Under the pieces are notes generated by a model. It saw only the letters and a program-made list of their open reading frames with translations, was not told where the DNA came from and searched no databases. A stretch of DNA of 64,000 bases, from NCBI GenBank assembly GCA_964409385.1, contig CAYPCY010000001.1, forward strand, positions 41,456 through 105,455, written 5' to 3'. This DNA is from an uncultured Methanosarcinales archaeon (GTDB taxonomy: Archaea > Nanobdellota > Nanobdellia > Woesearchaeales > CAYPCY01). Shown in pieces: positions 997 through 58,200 of the stretch. Numbering within the stretch: position 1 is the stretch's first letter; every line of letters begins with the position of its first letter. The position numbers and the translations under genes were made by a program.

Positions 997-1671
997 TTAT
1001 ATTAATTTTAAACTAGCTTTTTCAAGAATAAAATCATATTTTGAAAGTTTTCCTTTTCCATCATAAACAGGATAAGAAATTCCTAGAACAGAATCAGGCT
1101 CAGAATCTTTTGCATTAATAACTACGCTTGGAGAATATTTTATATCCAATTCAAACTTATCATATCCTAAATTCAATTCTAATTTTTTCTTAATTCCATA
1201 AACACTCGTTATTTCCCTTGTTGTTTCATAGTCTGTAGATGAATGAAAAGTGTCAAAATAAGCATGTGAATGAATCCAACCAATAATTCTTTTTTGTTCT
1301 TTAATAATTTTTTTCTCAAGACATTCCACCTCTAAAACTTCACAATATGCCCTTTCAATTTTTTGCCTATCTGGTAATTGTAAATCTATTATTTCATCAG
1401 AATCATTCTCAGAAATTGCATAAAGAAAGATTTCTAGTGGAGAATTATATTTTTTAATAATTTTTTTTGCAAGATAAATTCCTTTTAATAATGCTTTTTT
1501 CTTAATTATTACTTGTTTTGGAAAGATATTTATAGTTTCCTGAATCGACACATTAACATAATTTGAAAGAAGTTTAATTATTGTTTTTTCTCTTTTATTA
1601 TATTTTTTTGACTTTTGATATTGTTTCCACCAAAATTTTAATGACTTGTTAGCAACCACAAATCTCACCAC
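997..1671 (-). CDS. JAMM/MPN+ metalloprotease (Rpn11/deubiquitinase-like), last gene of the Ubl-E2-E1-JAMM cassette
   Basis: Motif E...HSHAYFDTFHSSTD fits E-x(n)-H-x-H-x7-S-x2-D. It overlaps the upstream E1-like gene by 23 nt. Confidence 0.7.
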   Translation of the reverse strand: MVRFVVANKSLKFWWKQYQKSKKYNKREKTIIKLLSNYVNVSIQETINIFPKQVIIKKKALLKGIYLAKKIIKKYNSPLEIFLYAISENDSDEIIDLQLPDRQKIERAYCEVLEVECLEKKIIKEQKRIIGWIHSHAYFDTFHSSTDYETTREITSVYGIKKKLELNLGYDKFELDIKYSPSVVINAKDSEPDSVLGISYPVYDGKGKLSKYDFILEKASLKLI

Positions 1672-2929
1672 ACAAATCTTTTTTTCTTGAAAATAAATTT
1701 TGTGAATAAGAAGAAAAATTTAATGAAACATTTTTATTCAAATTTAAAGATAATGCTTCCACTGCCATTTGAGTTCCTACAAACATATTAGTTGTTATCA
1801 CACTAGGAGAAATATTTTCAGACATACAAGAATTTTTAATTTCTTTAAATTTTGAAAATCCTTTTCTACAATCCAAACAATTATTCTTTGACGGAATATA
1901 TGTTGATAATTCCCCTTCAGATTGATCAGTTCTTCCATCAACATAAACTTTTCCTGCTTTTACAGCAGCAGCGCTCAAAATAGATCTGGTTTTAAAATTA
2001 TCTACACAACCAAGAATTATATCAGATTTGGAAATCAAACTATTAATATTATTAACAGAAACATTTTCAACAAGATAAGATACATTAATAGATTTATTAA
2101 GTTTTGATATTCTTTTTGCTAGACTTTTTGATTTATATTCTCCAACAAGTCCATAATACAATATTTGTCTATTTAAATTTGAAGTTTCAACAATATCTGA
2201 ATCAATAATTTTTAAATTAGTATTTGATGATGCCAAACCTAGTGCTGAAAAAGTTCCTAAAGCGCCAGCACCAACAATAAGCGCATTTCCATAGTCGTTC
2301 AACAAAGTAGGTAAAAAATAAGTTACTTTTTCGCTCTCTCTTAATTTTTTCTCACCAGTCAAAACAAACAACTCTTTCCTAACAGAGTCAAGAACTATGG
2401 ACGCAATAATTCCTGAAGTCAACATTCCTTGTTTTCTACCATGATATTCTGATAATAAAATTTCTGACAAACTTTTTTGTTTAATAAATTTAGAACTTTT
2501 TTTTGTGGAGCTAACAGAATACATTTTTATGTTTGATTTCATAGCATACTCAAAACAAATTTCTTTAGAGTAAGAATTATTTGAACATTCTATTATTATA
2601 TCTGGATTTTCATAATTAAGAATGGCCTTTATTGGTTTTATAAAATAACTTGAGTAGTTTACATTTTGATTAATAAGTTTCAAAGTTTCAATAATTAATT
2701 CGTTTTTTTTAGAACCCATACTGTTTTTTTTTAAACTAAGAAAATTAAAATTAGTTTTTGCACGGGTATTATCTATTAACACAATATTTCCAAAACCGAG
2801 TGCTGAAAGTCCTGCTAAAATATATTGGGATGAAAAATCAGTTCCAGAAACAAGTATTTTGGTTTTTTTTAACTTATTTTGATTTTTACGCCCCCATATT
2901 CTAACATGTCTATCTTCAACATCATACAT
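1649..2929 (-). CDS. E1-like ubiquitin-activating enzyme, single chain with an N-terminal inactive adenylation domain and a C-terminal active adenylation domain (eukaryotic Uba1/SAE/NAE-like architecture)
   Basis: N-half has DRHVRIWG...KILVSG with a degenerate Gly loop, matching the YDRQIRLWG start of eukaryotic E1 regulatory subunits. C-half has IVGAGALGT...IDSDIVETSNLNRQ (ThiF/MoeB/E1 ATP-binding motif), CLDC (CxxC) and a candidate catalytic Cys in SCMSENISPS followed by GTQMAVEALSL. The C-terminus is CGEICGC. Confidence 0.7.
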   Translation of the reverse strand: MYDVEDRHVRIWGRKNQNKLKKTKILVSGTDFSSQYILAGLSALGFGNIVLIDNTRAKTNFNFLSLKKNSMGSKKNELIIETLKLINQNVNYSSYFIKPIKAILNYENPDIIIECSNNSYSKEICFEYAMKSNIKMYSVSSTKKSSKFIKQKSLSEILLSEYHGRKQGMLTSGIIASIVLDSVRKELFVLTGEKKLRESEKVTYFLPTLLNDYGNALIVGAGALGTFSALGLASSNTNLKIIDSDIVETSNLNRQILYYGLVGEYKSKSLAKRISKLNKSINVSYLVENVSVNNINSLISKSDIILGCVDNFKTRSILSAAAVKAGKVYVDGRTDQSEGELSTYIPSKNNCLDCRKGFSKFKEIKNSCMSENISPSVITTNMFVGTQMAVEALSLNLNKNVSLNFSSYSQNLFSRKKDLCGEICGC

Positions 2930-3973
2930 TTAACTAACCTCGCAAATTTCAAGATTAGTATTTTTTAAAGTATAATAGGGAATTAATAAATCATTAAAAT
3001 TAATAGGATTTAATTCTCTATGAACTGCTACATTATTAGTAACTCCTTTTTTCAAAAGATTTTCTCCTGTAATCAATACATCTGCAATTTGGCCTGCAAC
3101 ATTATTTTCTTTTAGCTTATTAATATTATAAGAATTAAATGACACTCTTTTGTCTCTCCAATATTGTTTTATATAAGGACCGTGACATATTGATCGAGAA
3201 TTTGTTGAATAATTTGTTAATGGATGTTTATATTTACCTTTTACTCTTGCAATTGTAAATTGAAGTAATGAATTATTAAGAGAAATAGTAGTGTATACTT
3301 CTGCTGGAGGAAATTTATAATAATTGGTGCCTGATTTTATTATAAAAGTTTCCAACTTAGAGATAATTTGATATTTTGAATTTCCAATTTTATTAATTGA
3401 AATATTTCTTTTTATAATAGGAAATTTTTGAATAATATAATTATTGTTAAATGTAATATTTGAATCAATTAAGAAATCATATTTTCTTTTAAATTTATTA
3501 TATGACATCAAATTAGTTAAGGAATACGTACTTTCTTCAAAGTTCACATATTCATGATTATTTTTTGAAGGATTTAAAGAATAAATATTTGTTTGATAAA
3601 AAAGAAGTCCTTTATTCTTATCTAAAATATTATTTATTAATGATTTATTAAATTTTTTTAAATTAACATTAGCTTTTTCAGTTTTTCTTCTACTAATTTT
3701 TTTATTTTTTTTAATAATAAAATACTCATTTGCGACCTCTTCGAAAAAATTATTAATAGTGAAATTTTCTTTTTTATTAGGTATATTATTGTACTTCTCC
3801 AATAATTCATTTTCTAAATATTTAATACTTTCAGAAATTTCAAGGCCTATTTTTATATCATGAAATGCGAGAAAATTATTTTTGGATTCTTTTGTTAAAG
3901 TATATATTCTTTCTTTCATTATTATAAAAGGATCTTTAGAATCCATAAGAATTTTAATAAGTGAAGGAAGCAA
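2930..3973 (-). CDS. E2-like (UBC-fold) ubiquitin-conjugating enzyme candidate with a ~200-aa N-terminal extension of unknown function
   Basis: C-terminal region YKFPPAEVY...KHPLTNYSTNSRSICHGPYIKQYW resembles the E2 core YPFKPP...HPN-x(8-10)-ICL-x(6-8)-W. The stop/start abuts both the Ubl gene and the E1 gene. Confidence 0.4.
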   Translation of the reverse strand: MLPSLIKILMDSKDPFIIMKERIYTLTKESKNNFLAFHDIKIGLEISESIKYLENELLEKYNNIPNKKENFTINNFFEEVANEYFIIKKNKKISRRKTEKANVNLKKFNKSLINNILDKNKGLLFYQTNIYSLNPSKNNHEYVNFEESTYSLTNLMSYNKFKRKYDFLIDSNITFNNNYIIQKFPIIKRNISINKIGNSKYQIISKLETFIIKSGTNYYKFPPAEVYTTISLNNSLLQFTIARVKGKYKHPLTNYSTNSRSICHGPYIKQYWRDKRVSFNSYNINKLKENNVAGQIADVLITGENLLKKGVTNNVAVHRELNPINFNDLLIPYYTLKNTNLEICEVS

Positions 3974-4378
3974 TTACTTTCCTCCTGCGGGTGTATAATC
4001 CATCACTAAATTTATTGATTTAAAAGTTACTTGTGAAGAACCTATAGGACGCTCTTCTTCATTAAGAATTTGTGAAGAATAATCTCCTATTATATCTTGT
4101 AAGCCTATTTCAGTTAATTGGTCATTATTATTTTTAAAATATATTGATGTTCTTCCTTGATTATTTTCCATCCTATTTTTCCATCTCTTTAAAGTTGTTG
4201 TAGTTTCTATTTGAGAAGAAGAGTATTCTTCATTCAAATCATCTTTTTTATTAGTTAATAAATAGTCAGTTATATCTGAAAATGTTCTTTCCATATAAGA
4301 ACTATTCACTTGTTTTGTTAAAGTTTCCAAATTATTTTGTCCTCTTGCTGATAAAGATGTTATTATTGGTTTTTCCAT
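3974..4378 (-). CDS. Ubiquitin-like modifier precursor candidate (C-terminal ...NLVMDYTPAGG-K), first gene of the cassette
   Basis: 134 aa ending in a diglycine plus one extra Lys, as expected for a Ubl that needs C-terminal processing. It abuts the E2-like gene and is co-oriented with the E1 and JAMM genes. The fold itself is not verifiable by eye. Confidence 0.35.
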   Translation of the reverse strand: MEKPIITSLSARGQNNLETLTKQVNSSYMERTFSDITDYLLTNKKDDLNEEYSSSQIETTTTLKRWKNRMENNQGRTSIYFKNNNDQLTEIGLQDIIGDYSSQILNEEERPIGSSQVTFKSINLVMDYTPAGGK

Positions 4379-4524: not shown

Positions 4525-5160
4525 ATGAAAAGGGTGATTCAAAGGCTTATTAGTAAGCTATTTGGGGGTTTGTTTGGTATTAAAAAAAGGATTAAATTAG
4601 GATTGTATGGTCCTCCAAACGGTGGAAAAACAACTTTAGCAAACAAAATTTGTAAGGATACTCTCGGAGAAGATATTGGTTCAGTTTCCAATGTTCCTCA
4701 TGAAACTAGAGAGATTCAGATTAAAGAAGAAATTAAAATTGAAAGTGATGGAAGATCATTAACTTTTAACCTTGTAGATACTCCTGGAATTGCTACTAGA
4801 ATTGATTATGAAGATTTCTTAAAGTTTGGAATGAAAGAAAAAGAGGCTAAAGAAAGGGCCAAAGAAGCAACAAAGGGAGTAATAGATTCTATTAAATGGC
4901 TTGATGATATGGATACAGTATTAGTAGTTCTTGACTCAACAAAGGATCCTTTTACTCAAGTTAATATTACTATTATTGGAAATCTTCAAGCTAGGAAAAT
5001 TCCTGTTTTAATAGTTGCTAACAAAATTGATCTTAAAAAATCAGATATTAAAAAAGTTGAATCTGCATTTCCTCAATATCCCCTAGTAGGTATTTCTGCT
5101 AAACACGGTAATAATTTAGAAGAATTTTATGATAAAGTTTTTGATTTGGTGAATAAATAA
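4525..5160 (+). CDS. Small GTP-binding protein (Ras-like/TRAFAC class GTPase)
   Basis: G1 GPPNGGKTT, G3 DTPG, G4 NKID, G5 SAK. The stop overlaps the next start (ATGA). Confidence 0.7.
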   Translation: MKRVIQRLISKLFGGLFGIKKRIKLGLYGPPNGGKTTLANKICKDTLGEDIGSVSNVPHETREIQIKEEIKIESDGRSLTFNLVDTPGIATRIDYEDFLKFGMKEKEAKERAKEATKGVIDSIKWLDDMDTVLVVLDSTKDPFTQVNITIIGNLQARKIPVLIVANKIDLKKSDIKKVESAFPQYPLVGISAKHGNNLEEFYDKVFDLVNK

Positions 5161-5537
5161 TGTTAACTTTGCAATTCATTCCTTATTTTGAAATTGAACA
5201 ATTAGATTCTGAAGAAAGAATTAAAAAATTAATTAAATTGGTTAAACAAGAAAAAATAGTTTTGTTAGAAGGACGATTAGATCAAGAAGAAGAAACTGAT
5301 TTAATTAGAAGGACAATGGAAGAAATTTCTGGAAAATTTAAAGGCATAGAATTAAGTGTTATTTATCCTGATGGTGGAGATTCTGATTTTTTTAATAAAT
5401 TAAAACAGACAATATTAAATGTTATTCTTGGAAATAGACAAGGCATGACAATAATAGGTCCTGCATCTATAATTAAAGAAATAAAACAAGATCCTGATAA
5501 GATTCAATTATTTGCTATAGATAAGAGGCGAAAATAA
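5160..5537 (+). CDS. Conserved archaeal protein of unknown function (DUF2073-like), co-operonic with the GTPase
   Basis: 125 aa. Translationally coupled to both neighbours. The family assignment is from memory of conserved archaeal GTPase/DUF2073/Zn-ribbon neighbourhoods. Confidence 0.35.
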   Translation: MLTLQFIPYFEIEQLDSEERIKKLIKLVKQEKIVLLEGRLDQEEETDLIRRTMEEISGKFKGIELSVIYPDGGDSDFFNKLKQTILNVILGNRQGMTIIGPASIIKEIKQDPDKIQLFAIDKRRK

Positions 5538-5918
5538 ATGTCGCACCAATGTGTTAATTGTGGTAATTTATTTGATAATAAATCTGAGAAAATATTAACT
5601 GGTTGTGATTGTGGTGGAAAATTATTTTTTTTCATTAAAAATAATGCATCAATAAAAAAATCTTCTGAGGATCTAATTAAATTAACAACTAAAGATAAAA
5701 AACAAATTGAAAAAGATGTTTATGATTTAATTGGGAATGAATTAGATAAAGATAAACCAATAGTTCTTGATTTAGAAACTATTAAAATTCTTAAGCCTGG
5801 TAAGTATGAGTTAGATCTTGTTTCTTTATTAAAAAAGAAACCTTTAATATTTAAACTTCAAGAAGGAAAGTATGTTATAGATCTTACTGAAAGTTTTAAA
5901 GAAAAATATTTTAAATAA
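5538..5918 (+). CDS. Zn-ribbon protein (CxxC...CxC)
   Basis: N-terminal CVNCGNLF...GCDCGG. It follows the DUF2073-like gene directly. Confidence 0.5.
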   Translation: MSHQCVNCGNLFDNKSEKILTGCDCGGKLFFFIKNNASIKKSSEDLIKLTTKDKKQIEKDVYDLIGNELDKDKPIVLDLETIKILKPGKYELDLVSLLKKKPLIFKLQEGKYVIDLTESFKEKYFK

Positions 5919-49080: not shown

Positions 49081-49599
49081 ATGATAGCGTTAGCTTTGAA
49101 TAAAAAGGAAAAATTGCTAATAAGTTTCCTAAGACAAAATGCTAGGGAGACTTTAACTAATCTTAGCAAGAAAACTTCAATTCCAATAAGTACAATATAT
49201 GATAGTCTAAAAGAAAATAATTACATTACTAGAAATACTTGTTTATTAGATTTTGAAAAGTTAGGATTTCATACTCGTGTTAATATTTTCTTAAAATCAT
49301 CTGCGAAAAATAGAAAAGAGTTGGAAAACTACTTGGTAGGTCATCAAAATGTTAATTCTGTCTTTAGAATAAATAATAATTTTGACTTTTTGATAGAAGG
49401 AATTTTCAAGCAAGTAAAGGATGTTCAAGAAGTTATAGAATTACTTGAAAAAAACTTTGGAGATTTAAAAAAAGATATTTTTTACATTACTGAAGAGTTG
49501 AAGAAGGAAGAATTTCTCAGTAGTCCTGACCTGGTACAAACCCAAAAAACTTCCAAGATGACCGGAAATCCTCCGGCAAATTCTGGGTATGTCTTTTAA
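49081..49599 (+). CDS. Lrp/AsnC-family transcriptional regulator, paralogous to 23149-23598
   Basis: LISFLRQNARETLTNLSKKTSIPISTIYDSLK is an HTH. FRINNNFDFLIEGIFK resembles the 23149 protein's FKVNNQYDFLVECIFK. Confidence 0.6.
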   Translation: MIALALNKKEKLLISFLRQNARETLTNLSKKTSIPISTIYDSLKENNYITRNTCLLDFEKLGFHTRVNIFLKSSAKNRKELENYLVGHQNVNSVFRINNNFDFLIEGIFKQVKDVQEVIELLEKNFGDLKKDIFYITEELKKEEFLSSPDLVQTQKTSKMTGNPPANSGYVF

Positions 49600-52500
49600 A
49601 ATGAATAAACAAACTTTATTTATGGGGGAAGTAATAAATAAAACAAATATACTTTCGTTAAAAGTATTATCTTTCTTGCTCATATTCATCTTACTGCCTT
49701 TTGTTATTGCCTCTGAAACAACTTATGGTTCAGTCTATGAAATTGAAGAGATTGACAGAAAAGAATTATTTCAAGAAACAGTCAGAGAAAAACTTGAAAA
49801 ACAAGCATTAATCTATAAAGTAATTCCTACAGAAAAAGGAAATGAAATTTACAGAATTGATTCTGAAGGTAACATTATTGATGAAGATATTCCTCTTATT
49901 ATAAGTTCAATTAATTTATCTTCAAACTATTACGATGCAAAAATTTACGAGTCTCAAATTCAATCTCAAACTGTAAAACAAGGTAGTGGTGAAGGAGAAT
50001 CCTCCACTAGAGATATGGATTGTAATAATGCATATTATTTAGATTGGGAAGATGAAGGATCCGTCACCGGCTGGTATCCTCCAAACGAATACGAAAATCA
50101 TTGGTTTGAAATAGATCTTCCTAACGATGATGAATTTCTGATAGGTATTGACATGTCTAATAATGATGATTTTGATTTATATGTACATCCTGAATGTAAT
50201 GATGGATGGGTTTGCAGACCGTATGATGGAACAGGAGATACAGAAATTTGTTATGTCGATAATTTAGATGGAGATGTCTATATTAGAATTCATGCATATT
50301 ATTTAGGAGATGATGATCCTTATTATCTATATATTTATCCTCTTGAAGGAAATAATGATTATTGTGATATTTGGGATGATTGGGGAGTTCCTTGTGAAGA
50401 AGGAGAGTGGGATTGTGAAAGTGATTCTGATTGTGAGTCTGGTTTAGATTGTATGGGACCTTATGGAGATTACAATCCTAATTATTATGATGGATGTTGT
50501 GAACCTGGCGATGAATGGGACGCCAACAGTCATGAATGTATTTCAGGAGGTTGCGAAGAAGGTTGGTTAAACGAATATGATTGTGGTTCTGGCAACATGA
50601 GAAAAAGACTTTACCAAAATTCTGACTGTAGCACTGATTGGGAAAATTGGGAAGATTGTGACGATTATGATACAGGGTGGGATTACTTCTGTTCTGGAGA
50701 TTGTATACAAAGAGAAGAAACAGATTATTACTGTTCTGATTCTTCAAATTCTTGCCAAGGAAGTTATGACCAAGATACTCTTTCTTGTAACGGAGATTCT
50801 GATTACTGTGACGATAGGTATGATCATCAGGACGCTTGCGGAAAGTGTGGATATGAAGATTACGATTGTGATTGGAATAGTGAATGTTCAGGAAGTCTAG
50901 AATGTACAGGACCCATCTGGGGAGCACTAGATGGTTGTTGCAATCCAGGAGAACAATGGGACGGTAGCGGAAACTGCGGAGAATGCTTCGCAGACAGTGA
51001 CTGTGACGATCAAAATTATTATTCAGGTTGGAATTACGAATGTGGTAGTAATTATGTTAAAAAATATAGGACATTTTACGATTTTGGTTGTTCAGGAGGT
51101 AATGATTGTGTAGCTAATCAAATAAACGAGGAAGAAATTTATTATAATGGAAATTCTGATTATTGTTCTAAGAGTATAGAATTTGGTTGTGGAGGGTGCG
51201 ATTATGAACAATATGATTGTGATTGGAATAGTGAATGTTCAGGAAGCCTAGAATGTACAGGACCCATCTGGGGAGCACTAGATGGTTGTTGCAATCCAGG
51301 AGAACAATGGGACGGTAGCGGAAACTGCGGAGAATGCTTCGCAGACAGTGATTGTAACAGCCAAGATTACTATTCAGAATGGTATTACGAATGTGGTTAT
51401 GATTATGTCAAAAAGTATCGAATATTTTATGATTATTCTTGTTCAGGAGGTAATGATTGTATAGTTAATGAAATTGTTGAAGAAATAATATACAACAATG
51501 GAAATGAAGATTATTGTGATAAAAGTTTAGAGTATGGTTGTGGAGCTTGTGGATATGAACAATATGATTGTGATAGTAATAGTGAATGTTCAGGAAGCCT
51601 AGAATGTATGGGTTCAATCGGAGGCGCACTAGATGGTTGTTGCAATCCAAATGAAGAATGGGATGAAGTTAATTATGAGTGTATTTTCAACACTGTTTGT
51701 GGTGATGGAATTTGCAGTCCTGACGAGTATTGTGTTCAAGATTGTTTAGTTATTGACAGTTTTATTGACAATCCTGACTCTGTTGATTATGGAGAACCTG
51801 TTTCAGTAACTGTTAAGGTTGATAATATTGGAACTGTTACTTTATCTGAAAATATCGAAGCAGGAATTGTTCCTGAATCTTGGGCTGGTTTAATCTATCC
51901 TGATAGAAGTTCTACTCCTATTAGTGGTTGTTGTGACGCAAACGAATATTATGATTCTTTCCATCTGGAAATTAGTCCTGGACAGAGTGAATACGTTACT
52001 TTTAGTATTATAGCTCCTAATCCTGACTCTATTGATAATTGTGGTGATGGGGGTAGTGCTTGGGATTCTTCATTTAATTTAATTTCAGGATTGTATGTTG
52101 AGTGCTTTGAAGGATATACTGATTTTACAAGTACGGAGATTGATGTTTCTTATGAACCTCCTTGTAATAATAATGGTATTTGTGAAGAGTGGGAAAGTTT
52201 TGAAACTTGTTCTTCAGACTGTGTGTGTAATGGTAATGGAATTTGTGATGGTTTAGAAACTTTTGATACTTGCGCTAGTGAATGTTATTGTGATTTTGAT
52301 GGAACTTGCGACAGTTTTCAGGGAGAGAATGAGTATACTTGTGCCGCTGATTGTGTTCCTGATTGTGATATTCCTGACGGTAGTTCTTACGCTTGTGATT
52401 GTGATTCTAATATTGAATGTCCTTCGGGTTTGTTCTGTAATTTTGTTTCTGGTCCTGACGCTTGTGAGGAGATTAATTATGAGGATGAATGTTCTAACTA

Positions 52501-54739
52501 TAATGATTATTATTGTAATTCTGGAAATGTTTTCCAGTGTGTTTTTGAATCTACTAATTATGTTGAGGAACTAGTTGATGTTTGTACTAGTGGAGAGTTT
52601 TGTGATTCTCAAGTTGTTTCTGGCACTGGCGAGTGTAGTTTATTACCTGTTCATTTAGACTTGTGGATTGATTATGCACCTGTTGGTTTAACTGTTAATA
52701 AGCAAGTTGGTGATGTATTCACAGTTAATATTTATGCGGAACAGTCTACAACTGTTGATTTACAATATTCAGCAGTATTTTCTGGAGATTGTCCTCTAGG
52801 TAGTTATTCTTTAGACACTGGAGTTAATTCTTGCGAGTTAAGTGTTAATTCAGGATTTGGTAATTATATTATTAGTGTTAATGATAATGTAGTTACTTTG
52901 AATATTGTTTCAGAACCTTCATTGATTGTTGTTACTAATGTTGAGAAGTTGTTTGAAAGATTCCCTTATGAAGAAAGAGGGGTTGAAGCTACATTAAGTC
53001 AAACTTATGAGAATTCTGTTTCAAATTCGGTAGTTTATGATCTTAGCAAGTACATTTCTGGACATCCTTTCAATAGTTTTTCAAATTATAATGAGCATGT
53101 TGATAATCTTAACATGATGGATAATTCTTATACTGTTGAAGCTTCTGAATTCATTAAGGAAAAATGTAATGGTTGTTCTGATATTATGATTCTTGGTGAT
53201 GATTATGTTATTCCAGGATATAGAAGAATTATTGATGAGTACTTGACTGAATGGTTATGGTTTAACGGCGTTGCTGTAGAGTCTGTAATAACTACTGACA
53301 TTCCTTATATTGAAAAAGAAGTTTTATTGTTTTCTGAATATTTCGAAATTTTCAGGCAAGGATCTGGTTATCAGGGTAAGAATGTCTTAGTAATTCATCC
53401 TGCTAATGAAGATAGTTCCATGAGTGATAGTATTGAAGGTTTGAAGACTGCTTTTGTTGATCGTGGTTTTGATCCTGACTTCACAGATATTTCAGGAGAT
53501 ACTATTTATTGTGTTGATGAATCTTGGAGTAGTGATGCTTCTGGTAAGACTCTTATTCTTATTGGTTCTGAAGAGGATAATAATGCTTTTTCTTGCTTGC
53601 CTTTTATCCAGGCAGATTTAGATAATTATAGTGCTGCTCACTTACTTCCTAACGTTTGGGATACTGACGAATTTGCCTTAGTAATTAATACTGATGATCC
53701 TGCTGTTATTGAAAGTTTCGCATCTATGGTTAGAGAACAACAACTTGAGAATTTAGGTAGTGAGACTGCTTACTTCTTTAATATGGGAACTCAATATGTT
53801 GGTTATGGAGCTTTGGTTCTTGGTGCTGGGTTGATAATTGCTGGTACTGGTGGTGCTGCAGCTCCTGCAGGTTTGATTTTAATTGGGGGTATTGCTAATG
53901 TTGCTGCAGATTCAACTGATGTTGCTAATACTTGTTATGTTAATTATGATAGTATGGGCTGGTGTGGAGGCACTATTGCCTTAGCAGCAATTCCGGTCCT
54001 CCCTAGCAAGCCTGTTAAAGCTTTTATCAGGCAAATTAAGGATTTCAATTTTAATCAAATTGTTAATTTGCAATTAGTAGATGATGTAATGAAGAAATCC
54101 ATTAAATATTTTCAACCTGACGATCTTAAGAATGTAATTAAAAATGAGGAAACTCTTGAATTATTTTCTGACGGTAAACATTTCTTGATAGGGGGGGATG
54201 ATATTACTTCTATTAAAGTTGCTGAATTTAATAATATTAAAAAAGAACATTTAGCCGAAGGTTTTGTTAACTTGAAAAGGTTAGATTTAGATAATGCTTA
54301 TTTAGATCCTGATTGGTTAACCCAATTAAGAATGCAAGGAGGAAATCCTGGCTTTTGGGCTGAATTAAAACATGCTTCTGATCAGATAGATAATTTTGAT
54401 AAAGTTATTGTTGGGAAAAGACATGTAGGACTTAATATTGACATGGATGTATTATTGAAAAAAGAAGGCGTTCAAGAAGCTATTCTTGATGAAGTTAAGA
54501 ATTATAATAGTCTTCTAGAAATAGAAGAATTTAATTTAGGAGATGATTTATACAAACAATTAACTGCAAGAATTGGTTCTATAGGAACTACTGTTGAAGT
54601 TGCAGGAGATACTCTTACAATAACAAATGTCAGACTTATTGTTAGAGAAAATACACCTATAGGTCCAAATTTACAAACATTTTTAGATGAGAATCCTTCA
54701 ATGGAATTAATTAGATTTAGAGGAGTTGATTGGCCATGA
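49589..54739 (+). CDS. Giant secreted Cys-rich protein (1716 aa) with tandem ~117-aa Cys-rich modules, a Gly/Ala-rich hydrophobic segment and an unknown C-terminal domain
   Basis: Signal peptide LSFLLIFILLPFVIASE. Repeated modules CG.CGYE.YDCDWNSECSGSLECTGPIWGALDGCCNPGEQWDGSGNCGECFADSDC. More than 150 Cys in total. Confidence 0.6.
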   Translation: MSFKMNKQTLFMGEVINKTNILSLKVLSFLLIFILLPFVIASETTYGSVYEIEEIDRKELFQETVREKLEKQALIYKVIPTEKGNEIYRIDSEGNIIDEDIPLIISSINLSSNYYDAKIYESQIQSQTVKQGSGEGESSTRDMDCNNAYYLDWEDEGSVTGWYPPNEYENHWFEIDLPNDDEFLIGIDMSNNDDFDLYVHPECNDGWVCRPYDGTGDTEICYVDNLDGDVYIRIHAYYLGDDDPYYLYIYPLEGNNDYCDIWDDWGVPCEEGEWDCESDSDCESGLDCMGPYGDYNPNYYDGCCEPGDEWDANSHECISGGCEEGWLNEYDCGSGNMRKRLYQNSDCSTDWENWEDCDDYDTGWDYFCSGDCIQREETDYYCSDSSNSCQGSYDQDTLSCNGDSDYCDDRYDHQDACGKCGYEDYDCDWNSECSGSLECTGPIWGALDGCCNPGEQWDGSGNCGECFADSDCDDQNYYSGWNYECGSNYVKKYRTFYDFGCSGGNDCVANQINEEEIYYNGNSDYCSKSIEFGCGGCDYEQYDCDWNSECSGSLECTGPIWGALDGCCNPGEQWDGSGNCGECFADSDCNSQDYYSEWYYECGYDYVKKYRIFYDYSCSGGNDCIVNEIVEEIIYNNGNEDYCDKSLEYGCGACGYEQYDCDSNSECSGSLECMGSIGGALDGCCNPNEEWDEVNYECIFNTVCGDGICSPDEYCVQDCLVIDSFIDNPDSVDYGEPVSVTVKVDNIGTVTLSENIEAGIVPESWAGLIYPDRSSTPISGCCDANEYYDSFHLEISPGQSEYVTFSIIAPNPDSIDNCGDGGSAWDSSFNLISGLYVECFEGYTDFTSTEIDVSYEPPCNNNGICEEWESFETCSSDCVCNGNGICDGLETFDTCASECYCDFDGTCDSFQGENEYTCAADCVPDCDIPDGSSYACDCDSNIECPSGLFCNFVSGPDACEEINYEDECSNYNDYYCNSGNVFQCVFESTNYVEELVDVCTSGEFCDSQVVSGTGECSLLPVHLDLWIDYAPVGLTVNKQVGDVFTVNIYAEQSTTVDLQYSAVFSGDCPLGSYSLDTGVNSCELSVNSGFGNYIISVNDNVVTLNIVSEPSLIVVTNVEKLFERFPYEERGVEATLSQTYENSVSNSVVYDLSKYISGHPFNSFSNYNEHVDNLNMMDNSYTVEASEFIKEKCNGCSDIMILGDDYVIPGYRRIIDEYLTEWLWFNGVAVESVITTDIPYIEKEVLLFSEYFEIFRQGSGYQGKNVLVIHPANEDSSMSDSIEGLKTAFVDRGFDPDFTDISGDTIYCVDESWSSDASGKTLILIGSEEDNNAFSCLPFIQADLDNYSAAHLLPNVWDTDEFALVINTDDPAVIESFASMVREQQLENLGSETAYFFNMGTQYVGYGALVLGAGLIIAGTGGAAAPAGLILIGGIANVAADSTDVANTCYVNYDSMGWCGGTIALAAIPVLPSKPVKAFIRQIKDFNFNQIVNLQLVDDVMKKSIKYFQPDDLKNVIKNEETLELFSDGKHFLIGGDDITSIKVAEFNNIKKEHLAEGFVNLKRLDLDNAYLDPDWLTQLRMQGGNPGFWAELKHASDQIDNFDKVIVGKRHVGLNIDMDVLLKKEGVQEAILDEVKNYNSLLEIEEFNLGDDLYKQLTARIGSIGTTVEVAGDTLTITNVRLIVRENTPIGPNLQTFLDENPSMELIRFRGVDWP
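50837..51700 (+). repeat. 351-bp coding tandem repeat (2 near-identical copies plus a partial third) inside the giant protein gene
   Basis: Copies start at 50837, 51188 and 51539. The spurious ORFs 50931-51113 and 51282-51464 are displaced by exactly 351 nt and are near-identical. Confidence 0.8.
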
Positions 54740-55299
54740 GTAATTATAATAAATTTATTTTTAAGATTGAAAAAGAAGAAGATATTGAATTAATTAATAG
54801 TATAATAAATAAATACTGTTCTGAAAAAAATACTACTGAAGAATCTTTCAAACAATTAATTATTGGTGAAATGATTATTGATGTTTATTATACTGTAGAA
54901 AAAGATAGTTCTAAAACTAAATATGTTAGTTTTTCGGTTAATCAAATCAGGTTTAGTACTGAATCATTTTATAATTTAATTAAAGAGATAGGATCGGCAA
55001 TTTCAATGTCTGGAACGGGATATAACGAATACGAACCAGAAAAGGATCCTGAAGTTTTAGAAGAGGGTAAAAAAGGAATTTTTAAGAGATCTTATGATGT
55101 TGAAGATTTTTGGCCTTGGTCTCTTTTTTCTAAAGAATTAGTTGAAAAATACGGTAAAGATAAATTGTTTAGTGCTCCTGTTGAATTTGTTGAAGAATTT
55201 AATAATGGTTCTGTATTTTTAATGATTAATAAAAATTCAATGGGAACTAATAACTTCGAACAAAGAAAAAAATTAAGGGAATACTTAAGAAATGAATAA
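54730..55299 (+). CDS. Hypothetical 189-aa cytoplasmic protein overlapping both giant genes (possible accessory, immunity or chaperone)
   Basis: Its start overlaps the 49589 gene stop by 10 nt, and its stop overlaps the 55292 gene start by 8 nt. Confidence 0.35.
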   Translation: MAMSNYNKFIFKIEKEEDIELINSIINKYCSEKNTTEESFKQLIIGEMIIDVYYTVEKDSSKTKYVSFSVNQIRFSTESFYNLIKEIGSAISMSGTGYNEYEPEKDPEVLEEGKKGIFKRSYDVEDFWPWSLFSKELVEKYGKDKLFSAPVEFVEEFNNGSVFLMINKNSMGTNNFEQRKKLREYLRNE

Positions 55300-58200
55300 A
55301 CAATTAATTTTAGGAATTTATATTTTACTTTTGTTTTCACAAGCTTTAGCTGTGGAGTTTGTTAGTGAGAAAAATTCTGTTTCTAGAATTGTTGGTGAAT
55401 CACCTACTGAATTAATTACTCAATTGAAGAGAACTTCTCTTAATATTGATGAAGCTACTTATTACAGTTACGAAACAAGTCTTATTAACAAGAAAGATAA
55501 TATTCTTAATGAACAATTTGGTGGTGTTGATACTAATCTTCCTAATTATTATAATTTTTACGAAATTCAGGATTCTGTAGATTCTCTTTCAAATAATGAA
55601 TTGTTTATTCTTGAAGCATTTGGTGGAGATTCTTTTCAAGAGGTTAAATCTGCAAGTTTTTTAGGGGATGAATTATCAGTCCAGGATATTACTGATTGGC
55701 AATCTTCTTTTGAAATGAATACTCCCTTATTTATTTTTGATGCTCCTAATGCAGGAGTTTACATGCCTAAGGATGATACTTTCGTTTCTAGACTAGTTAG
55801 GGATTCTACAATAATCGCTCCTTCGTATTATAACTCTCCAGAATTTACCAAGTCAGTACTTTGTAATTTACAGTCTGGAAAGACTATTGGTGAGACTTTC
55901 AAGGATGCTAGAAACTTCCATTTTAATGGCGGTTCCTCTAATAATTATATTGGATTGGTTTTACAGTCTTATAATTTATATGGTAATCCTAGACAGGTTA
56001 TTTCCATGCCTTCCTTTGACATTGCTGATTACTGCCAGAATAATCTTGAAAATTTAGCGAATGGTATTGAATATTTGGGGGAGGTTGGTAATTATTCTTT
56101 GTTTAGAAAACATTTAACTTACACTATTGATGATTTTGAAATTGTTAATAATACTATTGAAATTCCAGGTCTTAATCAAAGGCTTTCTTTTGGAGAACCA
56201 ATAGTTCCTGTTTCTATAAGAACTACTTATTTTCCTAAAGATACTATTTTCATGAATTTTAGTGTTAATGAAATCAGTAATCCAGAAAGTTTTAATCTTA
56301 ACTTTTCTTCTTACGAGTTTGACTTTGTTGATAGGCATTGTTATCAAGAAGAGTTCGGAGAGGAAATCATTCTTTCGGAAGGTTATGGTAAGACTCATAA
56401 TTTGATTGCTAAAATACTTCCAGTTAGGATTGATAATTGTTCTTCTGGAGATATTACTTTATTTAAACAATTTAATTACAGTGTTGATTACATCACATTA
56501 AGTCCTGTGATGATTAAGGAAGTTAGTGTTCCTTCAAAAGTTTATTCTAATGAAATTGTTAATGTTGATGTTGAAATTTTGAATTTGAAAGATTCTGTTA
56601 GTTTTGGTTCTTTGGCTGTTTACAAGGGTTCTGAACTTATTACTGAGAATGAAATTAACTCTTCAATTTATAATCATACATTAAGTTTTTATGCGCCTGA
56701 AGAGGGAATTCATAAGTATAGTGTAGAATTTATTTTTGAGAATGAAACTGCTCATTATAAAGAGTTTATTCTTGAGTCTGTAATTTTAGAAGTTGATGCT
56801 TCCATTCCAGTTTCTATAAATGAAGAAACCACTATTAATCTAGAATTATACTCTCCCTTAACTTTTGATACTGTTATGGAGTATTACTTGTTAAAAGATG
56901 AAGAGATTCTTGATTCTGGAGTTTTAGAGTTTGAAGTTTCTGGATTAATAAATCAAGAAATTTCTTTTACTGGACTTTCAAGGGAAGACCAGAATTATTT
57001 GCTGAGAATTAATAATTATTACTTAGGGAATCAGAAAACTAATACTTTCTTATTAACAATTAATAATCTTCCTTTACTTAATGTTGATTATGATACTGTT
57101 TTTGAAAATGAATCTTTCATTATTAGTTTTGAAGCTACTGATTTGGATAATGATCCTTTAACAATTTCAATAGATGATGAGAATTTCATTCAAGAAAATA
57201 ATAGTTTTGTTTGGGATACTGAATTTACTGATTCTGGAGATTATACTGTTGAACTTACTGTTTTTGATGGTTTATTAACAAATTCTTTGCTTATTCCATT
57301 TTCTATTGAAAATTGGTTATTGCCAATGAGTATTTCTGGCGGTTTAGTTTATAGTAATGGAGAAATAATTAATAATTCAATTTTGGATGTTTATATTAAT
57401 AATATTTTATTTAGTAGTTTTGAAGTTGATACTAGTTATTCAATTAATATTCCTGCAGACAATTTTGATAATTATGGTTTTTTTGAAGATGATATTATTA
57501 GTTTCAAACTTGATAATTATGACGTTGTGGAAACTTTAAGTTTCATTCCTGAAGAAGAAATTAGTTTGGACTTGACTGTTTTACTTCCTAATACTGCTCC
57601 TGTCTTTGATGAAATTTCTGATCAATTAATTAATGAAGGTTATGCTTTAACTATTGAACTTAATGTTTCAGATCCTGATGGTGATGACTTAACTTATTTA
57701 CTTGAAGGTCCTGGAATTTTATTCAATAATACTTATGTTTGGGAGACTTTATTTGAAGATTCTGGAATTTATGATGTTTCAATAATAGTTTCAGATTTTG
57801 AATATTCAATCACTAGAACATTCTCTATTGAAGTTTTGAATATTAATAGACTTCCTGTAATTGAAGAAATTCTTAATCAAATTATTCATGAGAATGAAAC
57901 TTTAATTATTGAACTTAATGTTTCAGATCCGGACAGTGATGAATTAACAATTTCATTGGATGGGGTTGGAGAGATAATTGATGAAACTTTTGTTTTCTCT
58001 CCTGAATATGGTAGTTCAGGAATTTATGATGTTTCAATAATAGTTTCAGATTTTGAATCTTCAGTTACTGAAAATTTCTCTATTGAAGTTTTGAATATTA
58101 ATTTACCTCCAGTTGTAGAGTTTGAATTTGATGATGAATTAGTTAATGAGGTAGACTCTATCAGCATAATAGTTAATGCTGTTGATCCTGATAATAATGA

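What the first reader, a model, noticed from the sequence alone, without database searches (positions are those of the whole stretch)
1649..2929. E1 is a single-chain IAD plus AAD enzyme with the eukaryotic YDRQIRLWG-type N-terminal signature
The N-terminal half (DRHVRIWG...KILVSG with a degenerate Gly loop) looks like the inactive adenylation domain of eukaryotic Uba1/SAE1/NAE1. The C-terminal half has the full ThiF motif (IVGAGALGT...DSDIVETSNLNRQ), the CxxC pair (CLDC) and a Cys in SCMSENISPS aligned to the catalytic PGCTIRNTP block of Uba2/Uba3. Prokaryotic MoeB/ThiF-like E1s and the Caldiarchaeum E1 are single-domain homodimers. A fused pseudo-heterodimeric E1 in a small AT-rich archaeal genome is unusual. 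It is relevant to E1 evolution and could also reflect eukaryote-to-archaeon transfer.
Basis: partly seen in the sequence, partly recalled or inferred. Interest (0 to 1): 0.75.

Follow-up and report, generated by a model that had tools for sequence, protein, structure and literature searches.

The report
Minimal fused E1 in archaeal ubiquitin-like operon
The gene really does encode a single-chain ubiquitin-activating-type enzyme, with a dead copy of the adenylation domain fused to a live one. It is not eukaryote-derived: it belongs to a conserved prokaryotic four-gene modifier operon, common in tiny DPANN-type archaea, whose closest solved relative is the bacterial anti-phage enzyme BilD.

Summary

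- The "eukaryotic" N-terminal motif is the general E1-superfamily RYxRQ Arg-finger motif. The N-half profile scores best against MoeB (84 bits), not SAE1/NAE1 (39 bits).
- Single-chain IAD-AAD E1s have been known in bacteria (BilD) since 2023.
- Nothing supports contamination or eukaryote-to-archaeon transfer.

The gene sits in a tight operon: GG-ended small protein, Cys protein with an HPx...C motif, E1, JAMM peptidase. All three partners accompany the E1 in 54 of 81 loci, which carry mostly Woesearchaeota/Nanoarchaeota labels plus a Desulfobacterota-type bacterial clade. The usual gene order is that of BilABCD.

It differs from BilD and from eukaryotic E1s: no Cys domain (the crossover segment is 7-32 residues, 17 or more in 75 of 76 relatives), no FCCH and no UFD. 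The putative E2 and Ubl match no known family by sequence. About a third of the loci add an AAA+ ATPase. Verdict: a new variant of a known kind, of moderate to high interest.

The parts
3974..4378 (-). Putative ubiquitin-like modifier precursor, 134 aa, ending ...TPAGG-K (GG followed by a one-residue tail)
   Evidence: ORF; tail PAGGK*. It belongs to a family found next to the E1 in 60 of 81 non-redundant loci. After trimming at the last GG, 53 distinct family sequences end in one aligned, conserved ..Q[QE]GG; the tails that were cut off are 0-25 residues. There is no Pfam hit and no detectable similarity to ubiquitin/NEDD8/SUMO, so the beta-grasp fold is inferred, not shown.
2930..3973 (-). 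Putative E2-like conjugating protein ('E2L'), 347 aa from TTG 3973 (338 aa from ATG 3946 as called in public assemblies). Candidate catalytic Cys263 (nt 3185..3187) lies in YKHPLTNYSTNSRSICHG
   Evidence: ORF; alternative start. Cys263 is the only invariant residue apart from Met1 in 26 diverse homologues, and is at least 90% conserved in 90 more. It is preceded by YxHP[FL]. The only local hhalign match to UBE2D2/UBE2I/UBE2N puts HPx on HPN and Cys263 on the catalytic Cys85, but it is not significant (probability 6.5%). No Pfam, PDB or PADLOC hit. The AF2 model was unusable (pLDDT 37).
2330..2929 (-). E1, inactive adenylation domain (IAD), residues 1-200, with the Arg finger R7 (nt 2909..2911)
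   Evidence: Homologous to the C-half. R7 is kept in 70/76 relatives. The positions that align with AAD residues G222, G225, D243, D245, R254, Q255 and D310 are variable or replaced: D31, S34, D53 (Asp in only 32/76), T55, F61, N62 and N117 (Asn in 52/76, Asp in 2/76). The AF2 model is confident across this region.
1649..2329 (-). E1, active adenylation domain (AAD), residues 201-426 plus stop. Features: GAGALG loop (2255..2272), DSDIVETSNLNRQ (2165..2203), D310 (2000..2002), Zn cysteines C351/C354 (1868..1879) and C424/C426 (1652..1660), catalytic-candidate C368 (1826..1828) on a short crossover loop
   Evidence: Pfam ThiF best stretch is 216-410. G220, G222, G225, D243, D245, N251, R254, Q255, K266 and D310 are invariant in 76/76; C368 in 75/76; C351/C354 in 57 and 53 of 76; C424/C426 in 46/76. 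The crossover segment is 7-32 residues, and 17 or more in 75 of 76. The only low-confidence stretch of the model is 364-372.
997..1671 (-). JAMM/MPN+ metallopeptidase, 224 aa (GTG start overlapping the E1 stop by 23 nt), motif HSHAYFDTFHSSTD (nt 1231..1272)
   Evidence: ORF. Pfam JAB E = 5e-4, below the gathering score. The motif H[ST]Hx7-9[ST]xxD is present here and in 67 of 78 family hits. A JAMM gene lies next to the E1 in 70 of 81 loci.

Best explanation
The 426-aa protein is the activating enzyme (E1) of a four-gene ubiquitin-like protein-conjugation operon of an AT-rich archaeon, probably of the DPANN/Nanoarchaeota type. It is one chain with two ThiF/MoeB-type Rossmann domains that pack as a pseudo-dimer.

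Inferred mechanism:
1. The JAMM peptidase trims the tail after the conserved GG of the neighbouring small protein (here a single Lys).
2. The C-terminal active domain binds ATP-Mg and adenylates the exposed Gly. The N-terminal dead domain supplies the Arg finger (R7) in trans, as the partner subunit does in MoeB and the IAD does in UBA1 and BilD.
3. Cys368, on a short flexible crossover loop, attacks the adenylate to form an E1~Ubl thioester.
4. The modifier is passed to Cys263 of the adjacent HPx...C protein (putative E2) and then to targets. The JAMM can also reverse the modification.

Shown here: the two-domain architecture, the decay pattern of the IAD, invariance of the AAD catalytic set and of Cys368, absence of Cys-domain/FCCH/UFD insertions, and conservation of the operon and of the GG end.

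Inferred: every chemical step, the E2 and beta-grasp folds, and the targets.

In evolutionary terms this is a prokaryotic family. It is equidistant in sequence from MoeB and from eukaryotic E1 active domains. It shares the fused IAD-AAD plan and the operon order with bacterial BilABCD, but keeps the ancestral MoeB-like catalytic loop.
For: Architecture:
- Pfam ThiF matches with two stretches, and the two halves align at hhalign 99.6%.
- The AF2 model has pLDDT 92 and pTM 0.93.
- The top 50 Foldseek PDB matches are all single-chain eukaryotic E1s, TM-score on the query 0.66-0.76.

Functional asymmetry: the AAD catalytic residues are 76/76 invariant, the IAD equivalents are lost, R7 is kept in 70/76, and C368 in 75/76.

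Operon:
- The genes abut or overlap on one strand.
- Ubl, E2L and JAMM families were recovered by iterated HMM searches on the loci.
- All three partners occur in 54 of 81 loci. The commonest order is Ubl-E2L-JAMM-E1 (40 loci), the same order as BilABCD (PMC10557695).
- The conserved GG is followed by a non-conserved tail, as in BilA, which BilC trims.

Family breadth: about 45 full-length homologues in the protein database and 80 loci in GTDB species genomes.
Against: - No experiment has been done on any member.
- The E2-like and Ubl assignments rest on motifs and gene context only. Neither family matches a Pfam, PDB or PADLOC sequence model. The E2L structure prediction failed. The hhalign matches to E2s and to ubiquitin are not significant.
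- Sequence similarity to BilD is marginal (PADLOC BilD model E = 0.015), and BilD is absent from the 60 best PDB sequence matches of either half. Common descent of the fusion with BilD or eukaryotic E1s is therefore unproven, and an independent duplication is possible.
- The JAMM Pfam score is below the curated cut-off.
Confidence: 0.68

Rival explanations
1. Sulfur-carrier activation. The enzyme is a MoeB/ThiF/UbaA-type adenylyltransferase that thiocarboxylates a small GG-ended carrier for cofactor or tRNA thiolation, rather than for protein conjugation (or in addition to it, as with SAMP/UbaA and Urm1/Uba4).
For: The best sequence matches of the C-half are ThiF and MoeB (phmmer 1e-14; TIGR02356 at 143 bits and MoeB models). 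The Cys sits on a short crossover loop and the zinc site is MoeB-like. The UbaA model matches at 83 bits.
Against: All NCBIfam scores are far below the curated cut-offs (143 against 275, 83 against 450). The protein is a fused IAD-AAD, unlike any known sulfur-transfer E1. No rhodanese, MoaE/ThiG-type or sulfurtransferase gene lies in the operon. Instead a JAMM peptidase, a tail-bearing GG precursor and a conserved-Cys protein are co-inherited. Several MAGs carry 2-4 paralogous operons, which does not fit a housekeeping cofactor pathway.
Confidence: 0.1
2. Peptide or natural-product tailoring. A MccB/PaaA-like ThiF enzyme adenylates the C-terminus of a ribosomally made precursor (the 134-aa protein) for chemical modification. 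The Cys protein and JAMM would be maturation enzymes.
For: MccB and PaaA are among the sequence and structure matches. The small protein and the Cys protein have no recognisable family.
Confidence: 0.05
3. Eukaryotic origin: the gene is assembly contamination, or was recently transferred from a eukaryote.
For: The top 50 whole-chain Foldseek matches are eukaryotic UBA7/UBA1/UBA6. phmmer of the N-terminus finds NAE1 at E = 1.6e-3.
Confidence: 0.02

Closest known systems
BilD, the E1 of bacterial BilABCD (Bacterial ISG15-like, types I/II; PDB 8TYZ; Chambers et al., PMC10557695)
Canonical eukaryotic E1s (UBA1/UBA6/UBA7; heterodimeric NAE1-UBA3 and SAE1-SAE2)
   Different: No SCCH/Cys domain, no FCCH or four-helix bundle in the IAD, and no UFD. 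The protein is 426 aa against about 1000. There is no specific sequence affinity: the C-half scores MoeB, Uba1, UBA3 and ThiF almost equally, and the N-half prefers MoeB to SAE1/NAE1.
MoeB / ThiF / archaeal UbaA (SAMP system) and UBA5: minimal homodimeric E1-like enzymes
   Same: These give the best pairwise sequence similarity to each half. The catalytic Cys sits on a short crossover loop, as in ThiF C184, MoeB C187 and UBA5 C250. The CxxC...CxxC-type zinc site and the C-terminal beta-hairpin are shared. There are no accessory domains.
   Different: Those enzymes are single-domain symmetric homodimers with two active sites. Here two domains are fused and one is degenerate. The curated model cut-offs are not reached. 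The operon partners are a JAMM, a Cys protein and a tail-bearing GG protein, not sulfur-transfer enzymes.
Caldiarchaeum subterraneum / Asgard Ub-E1-E2-RING-Rpn11 operons (PMC5654768, PMC3082918)
   Same: An archaeal operon linking a GG-precursor modifier, an E1-like enzyme, an E2-like enzyme and a JAMM/Rpn11 peptidase that matures the precursor.
   Different: Those components are recognisably eukaryote-like by sequence (ubiquitin, UBC-fold E2, small RING E3). Here the modifier and the E2-like protein have no detectable sequence relatives outside their own families, and no RING protein is present.
Bub (6E) operons and CBASS Cap2/Cap3
   Same: Prokaryotic E1/E2/JAMM conjugation modules. The Cap2 E1-domain models are the best PADLOC hits (1e-17 for the window protein, down to 5.5e-33 in the family).
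   Different: BubCD and Cap2 E1 domains form homodimers and are fused to a JAMM or an E2. Bub uses Tyr/Ser oxyester intermediates and lacks an E1 Cys, whereas here the Cys is invariant. No DUF6527/BubE or CD-NTase gene is present.

Membership tests
E1-like / ThiF superfamily (Pfam PF00899) | Rossmann-type adenylation domain with a GxGxxG loop and the conserved Arg, Lys and Asp that bind ATP-Mg | tested here: met
   PF00899 E = 1.5e-51, 175 bits against a cut-off of 28. G220/G222/G225, R254, K266 and D310 are invariant in 76/76 relatives.
Canonical (UBA1/SAE/NAE-type) E1 | Inactive plus active adenylation domains forming a pseudo-dimer with a single active site | tested here: met
Canonical (UBA1/SAE/NAE-type) E1 | Catalytic-cysteine domain (SCCH/CYS) inserted in the crossover loop | tested here: not met
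   The segment from C354 to P375 is 22 residues here and 7-32 residues in 76 relatives. The model shows only a loop with low pLDDT at 364-372.
Canonical (UBA1/SAE/NAE-type) E1 | [quoted passage not shown] | tested here: not met
   The protein ends 30 residues after the last AAD helix, with two short strands and the CxC. The IAD is 200 residues without insertions. No Pfam E1_UFD, E1_FCCH or E1_4HB hits.
BilD (E1 of BilABCD) | Tandem IAD-AAD in one chain with a four-Cys zinc site | tested here: met
BilD (E1 of BilABCD) | ~80-aa mobile alpha-helical CYS domain carrying the catalytic Cys | tested here: not met
   The crossover segment is too short for any inserted domain in all 76 family members.
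BilD (E1 of BilABCD) | Sequence membership (PADLOC BilD model), with BilA/BilB/BilC partners recognised | tested here: not met
   BilD model E = 0.015, 12 bits. BilD is not among the 25 PADLOC families matched by the most of 42 relatives. There are no PADLOC hits for the three partners.
BilABCD-like operon | Co-linear Ubl - E2 - JAB/JAMM - E1 genes, the Ubl having a conserved Gly followed by a removable tail | tested here: inconclusive
   Gene content and order match (40 loci Ubl-E2L-JAMM-E1; the window has Ubl-E2L-E1-JAMM), and GG plus tail is conserved. The E2 and Ubl folds of the partners are unverified.
MoeB/ThiF/UbaA homodimeric adenylyltransferases | Single adenylation domain acting as a symmetric homodimer; curated equivalog score reached | tested here: not met
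   Two fused domains. TIGR02356 143 bits against a cut-off of 275, MoeB 122 against 449, UbaA 83 against 450.
JAMM/MPN+ metallopeptidase (neighbour 997..1671) | HxHx7Sx2D zinc motif | tested here: met
   HSHAYFDTFHSSTD at residues 134-147. Pfam JAB scores 20.3 bits, just under the 22.5 cut-off. The upstream catalytic Glu was not mapped.
E2 / UBC fold (neighbour 2930..3973) | UBC fold with an HPN-type loop followed by the catalytic Cys | tested here: inconclusive
   YxHP[FL]-x9-13-IC is conserved and the Cys is invariant or at least 90% conserved. The AF2 model failed. No Pfam UQ_con or Prok-E2 hit in 116 members.
Ubiquitin-like beta-grasp modifier (neighbour 3974..4378) | Beta-grasp fold ending in an exposed or maskable C-terminal Gly-Gly | tested here: inconclusive
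   The GG end is conserved: 53 distinct sequences end in one aligned GG. There is no sequence match to Ub/NEDD8/SUMO or to Pfam.

The most novel reading that the evidence does not exclude
These loci, from DPANN-labelled archaea and a Desulfobacterota-type bacterial clade, define an undescribed third lineage of Bil-like prokaryotic ubiquitination systems. Its E1 would be the simplest fused IAD-AAD enzyme known: a MoeB-like catalytic loop, with no Cys domain and no UFD. That makes it a living model of the step between homodimeric MoeB/ThiF and canonical E1s. It would work with a novel, sequence-orphan E2 family and, in about a third of loci, a dedicated AAA+ unfoldase. This hints at a tag-and-unfold (proteasome- or Cdc48-like) or antiviral pathway in ultra-small archaea.
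Probability: 0.45. Interest if true: 0.75.

Novelty: new variant of a known kind. Interest (0 to 1): 0.6.

Why it matters
Until 2023 the fusion or pairing of a dead and a live adenylation domain was considered a eukaryotic hallmark, and BilD then showed it in bacteria. This family shows the same plan in a stripped-down form: the catalytic Cys is still on the MoeB-type loop and there is no Cys domain. It is widespread in DPANN-labelled archaeal genomes of roughly 1 Mb, sometimes in 2-4 copies.

If it is biochemically active, three things follow. It gives a minimal, tractable system for asking what the IAD contributes and how E1-to-E2 transfer works without a mobile Cys domain or a UFD. It adds an archaeal branch to the debate on whether complete ubiquitination cascades arose in bacteria or in archaea. 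Its sequence-orphan E2-like and Ubl families, and the recurrent AAA+ partners, point to unexplored biology (defence, or targeted unfolding and degradation) in organisms with very few regulatory systems.

Tried and rejected
- Structure prediction of the 347-aa E2-like protein with the only six sequences the tool would accept gave pLDDT 37. It was not used, and no fold search was run on it.
- Profile searches of the E2-like family found nothing: 26- and 90-member profiles against PDB sequences, and member-by-member scans of Pfam (both sets) and of PADLOC (the 26-member set).
hhalign of the GG-protein family against Ub/NEDD8/SUMO gave nothing.
- The first related-loci run with the 42-sequence alignment failed for lack of a conserved stretch. 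A 10-sequence alignment worked.
- The afdb50 fold library was unavailable.
- A scan of IMG/VR viral contigs found only single-domain or giant-virus E1 active-domain matches. The one candidate (L109) is a 234-aa single-domain ThiF.
The DPANN assignment therefore rests on the named E1 relatives and on gene content.
- A formal phylogeny of the two halves against BilD, SAE1 and NAE1 was not made because those sequences could not be obtained. Bit-score comparisons against PDB sequences were used instead. They do not resolve whether the duplication is shared with BilD and eukaryotes.
- Eight literature searches ran (two earlier calls failed on a term that was too short). They found no description of a DPANN tandem E1. 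The library lacks most subscription journals, so absence is weak evidence.
Full report
**The object.** The window is AT-rich (GC 0.24-0.37 in 2-kb bins). ORF 1649..2929 on the minus strand encodes 426 aa. These are EDRHVRIWG near the N-terminus, the degenerate loop KILVSGTDFSS, GAGALG, DSDIVETSNLNRQ, CLDC, Cys368 in NSCMSENISPS and a C-terminal CGC. Pfam ThiF matches at 1.5e-51 with two stretches. The identical protein, with the same neighbours, occurs on independently assembled JGI and ENA contigs.

**Two homologous halves, one of them dead.** I split 42 full-length homologues at residue 200 and aligned subsets of each half. The N-half profile (17 sequences) and the C-half profile (15 sequences) align at hhalign probability 99.6%, E = 1.8e-24, over 181 columns. 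In 76 non-redundant full-length relatives taken from genome loci, the following C-half residues are invariant: G220, G222, G225, D243, D245, N251, R254, Q255, K266 and D310. Cys368 is present in 75 of 76. The positions of the N-half that align with them are variable or replaced:
- G222 aligns with D31 (Gly in 30/76).
- G225 aligns with S34.
- D243 aligns with D53, which is Asp in only 32/76.
- D245 aligns with T55.
- R254 aligns with F61.
- Q255 aligns with N62.
- D310 aligns with N117 (Asn in 52/76, Asp in 2/76).

The N-half does keep the N-terminal arginine R7 in 70/76. In MoeB, the equivalent arginine reaches the partner subunit's active site (from my knowledge of the MoeB-MoaD structure). 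BilD uses Arg9 of its IAD in the same way (PMC10557695). The C-half lacks its own RYxRQ helix (sequence), as expected if only one site is fed.

- SAE1 at 24.3 and NAE1 at 24.0.

The single-chain IAD+AAD reading is therefore supported.

**What it lacks.** The segment between the second Cys of the CxxC and the conserved PSV motif is 22 residues here. It is 7-32 residues in the 76 relatives, and 17 or more in 75 of them. No catalytic-cysteine domain is inserted, unlike BilD (~80 aa) and eukaryotic E1s. The chain ends 30 residues after the last AAD helix, with two strands and the zinc cysteines, so there is no UFD. The IAD has no FCCH or 4HB insertion. Cys368 lies 13 residues after the CxxC. ThiF C184 and MoeB C187 occupy the same position (alignments), and so does SAE2 C173 (from my memory of the human SAE2 sequence).

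**Is the N-terminus eukaryote-like?** No. The family consensus is RYNRQELIxGWxQ, the generic E1-superfamily motif that MoeB also carries (alignment). Scores of the N-half profile against PDB sequences:
- MoeB 83.6 bits, Uba4 68.8, ThiF 64.8;
- UBA7 IAD 35.3 and UBA7 AAD 32.1;
- SAE1 39.6 and NAE1 39.3;
- its own C-halves, up to 82 bits.

The C-half profile scores MoeB 105.5, yeast Uba1 102.2, UBA3 99.3, ThiF 98.6 and SAE2 96.8. BilD is not among the 60 best sequences for either half. By sequence, then, the family is roughly equidistant from bacterial and eukaryotic adenylation domains. Whether its fusion is shared with BilD and eukaryotes or arose independently is unresolved.

**Gene context.** On the same strand, abutting or overlapping, lie four genes:
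- 3974..4378: a 134-aa protein ending PAGG-K.
- 2930..3973: a 347-aa protein with YKHPLTNYSTNSRSICHG.
- The E1.
- 997..1671: a 224-aa JAMM peptidase with HSHAYFDTFHSSTD.

The divergent neighbours are a GTPase with oapB and oapC. ELP3, Hsp70, archease and Orc1/Cdc6 lie in the window or its extension. This is an archaeal setting.

A pattern scan of one genome per GTDB species returned 80 loci. About 63 carry archaeal labels, mostly Woesearchaeota, Nanoarchaeota/Nanoarchaeia and Pacearchaeota, plus metagenome bins labelled "uncultured Methanosarcinales". Seventeen carry bacterial labels, chiefly a coherent Syntrophobacteraceae/Desulfobacterota group at 26-27% identity over the full length. Some MAGs hold 2-4 loci.

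I called ORFs on all loci and iterated HMM searches from the three window neighbours. All three families accompany the E1, on the same strand and within 6 kb, in 54 of 81 non-redundant loci. Eleven further loci have E2L and JAMM only. The commonest order is Ubl-E2L-JAMM-E1 (40 loci), which is the order of BilABCD. The window's order, Ubl-E2L-E1-JAMM, occurs in 6 loci. After trimming at the last GG, 53 distinct small-protein sequences end in one aligned ..Q[QE]GG, and the tails that were cut off are 0-25 non-conserved residues. BilA shows the same precursor pattern, and BilC trims it.

**The partners are sequence orphans.** The 347-aa family has one invariant Cys (C263), preceded by YxHP[FL]. 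It has 222 cluster-50 representatives in 1.84 billion proteins. None of 116 members hits Pfam. Neither profile hits PDB sequences. None of the 26 scanned members hits a PADLOC model for a related component. AF2 with the six admissible sequences failed (pLDDT 37). The small protein has no detectable similarity to ubiquitin-family sequences or to Pfam. Calling these proteins an E2 and a Ubl is therefore an inference from motif, size and operon position.

**Comparison with what is known.** Chambers et al. showed that BilD is IAD-AAD-CYS with a four-Cys zinc site, and stated that all previously known bacterial E1-like proteins are homodimers. Bub and Cap2 E1 domains are homodimeric.

This protein has the BilD plan minus the CYS domain. 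It fails the PADLOC BilD model (E = 0.015). I file it as a new variant of the Bil-like kind, not as a member of BilD.

I found no description of such an enzyme or operon in DPANN archaea in the held literature. The library is incomplete, so this is weak evidence of novelty.

**Contamination and eukaryote-to-archaeon transfer.** The evidence is against both:
- the contigs were assembled independently;
- the operon GC is 0.247, against 0.291 for the window;
- the genes overlap, as in prokaryotic operons;
- the family is deeply diverged and widely distributed among prokaryotes;
- all eukaryote-specific domains are absent;
- the family is not found on IMG/VR viral contigs.

**Seen in passing.** AAA+ ATPase genes are part of the operon in about 29 of 81 loci, though not in the window. 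They are of two kinds. One is a ~500-aa AAA+ ATPase that abuts the Ubl gene in 10 DPANN loci; calling it Cdc48/PAN-like is my reading of its sequence, and it was not scanned against Pfam. The other is a ClpX-like AAA_2/ClpB_D2-small protein in 19 loci, including the Desulfobacterota-type loci. This suggests a link between tagging and unfolding, but it is untested.

**Verdict.** The eukaryotic and HGT framing is not supported. The real finding is a widespread prokaryotic, mainly DPANN, Bil-like conjugation operon whose E1 is the most minimal fused IAD-AAD enzyme seen so far.

Noticed in passing
L004, L009, L015, L019, L020, L031, L032, L033, L040, L052 (gene ending at the Ubl start); L006 8124-9587; L074 3516-4619; L072-L086: AAA+ ATPase genes are embedded in or abut the Ubl-E2L-JAMM-E1 operon in about 29 of 81 loci. 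They are either a ~500-aa AAA+ ATPase that I read as Cdc48/PAN-like from its sequence (not scanned against Pfam), or a ClpX-like AAA_2 + ClpB_D2-small protein. The window's own operon has none. This suggests a coupling between tagging and unfolding.
   Followed up: partly
window 2930..3973 (-) and homologues: The putative E2 belongs to a sequence-orphan family: 222 cluster-50 representatives, no Pfam, PDB or PADLOC match. It has a variable N-terminal region and a conserved C-terminal YxHP[FL]...IC domain. It diverges faster than the E1 (53% against 73% identity to the closest relative's proteins).
   Followed up: partly
L009/L016/L022/L045 (DATDYQ01), L023/L053/L068 (CAYNQH01), L019/L021 (JACRKG01): Single MAGs with small genomes carry 2-4 paralogous copies of the operon. 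L019 and L021 each have two tandem E2L genes.
   Followed up: no
L072-L086: A coherent bacterial clade labelled Syntrophobacteraceae/Desulfobacterota has the same tandem E1 (26-27% identity, full length). Its operon carries two extra genes between E2L and JAMM: a ~200-aa protein of unknown function and the 367-aa ClpX-like AAA+.
   Followed up: partly
L004 5113-5970; L006 7359-8120: In many DPANN loci a further conserved-position gene (253-285 aa, no Pfam match) follows the E1. It has no counterpart in the window's operon.
   Followed up: no
window 4525..5918 (+); L001 11175-11754: A GTPase with oapB and oapC (origin-associated proteins) is transcribed divergently from the Ubl gene. An Orc1/Cdc6 gene lies just beyond the window start on the longer contig. 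The operon may therefore sit close to a replication origin.
   Followed up: no
window 49589..54739 and 55292..59734 (+): Two giant ORFs of 1716 and 1480 aa. The second has Ig/cadherin/PKD repeats and the first has no Pfam match. They lie in the region of highest GC (0.35-0.37) and strong positive GC skew. They are likely surface proteins.
   Followed up: no
L077 5241-6630; L053 5917-7350: In an Aenigmatarchaeota-labelled locus and in one 'Methanosarcinales'-labelled locus the E1 is split into two ORFs, roughly IAD and AAD. This could be a frameshift or pseudogene, or a genuine two-subunit version like SAE1/SAE2. It was not examined.
   Followed up: no
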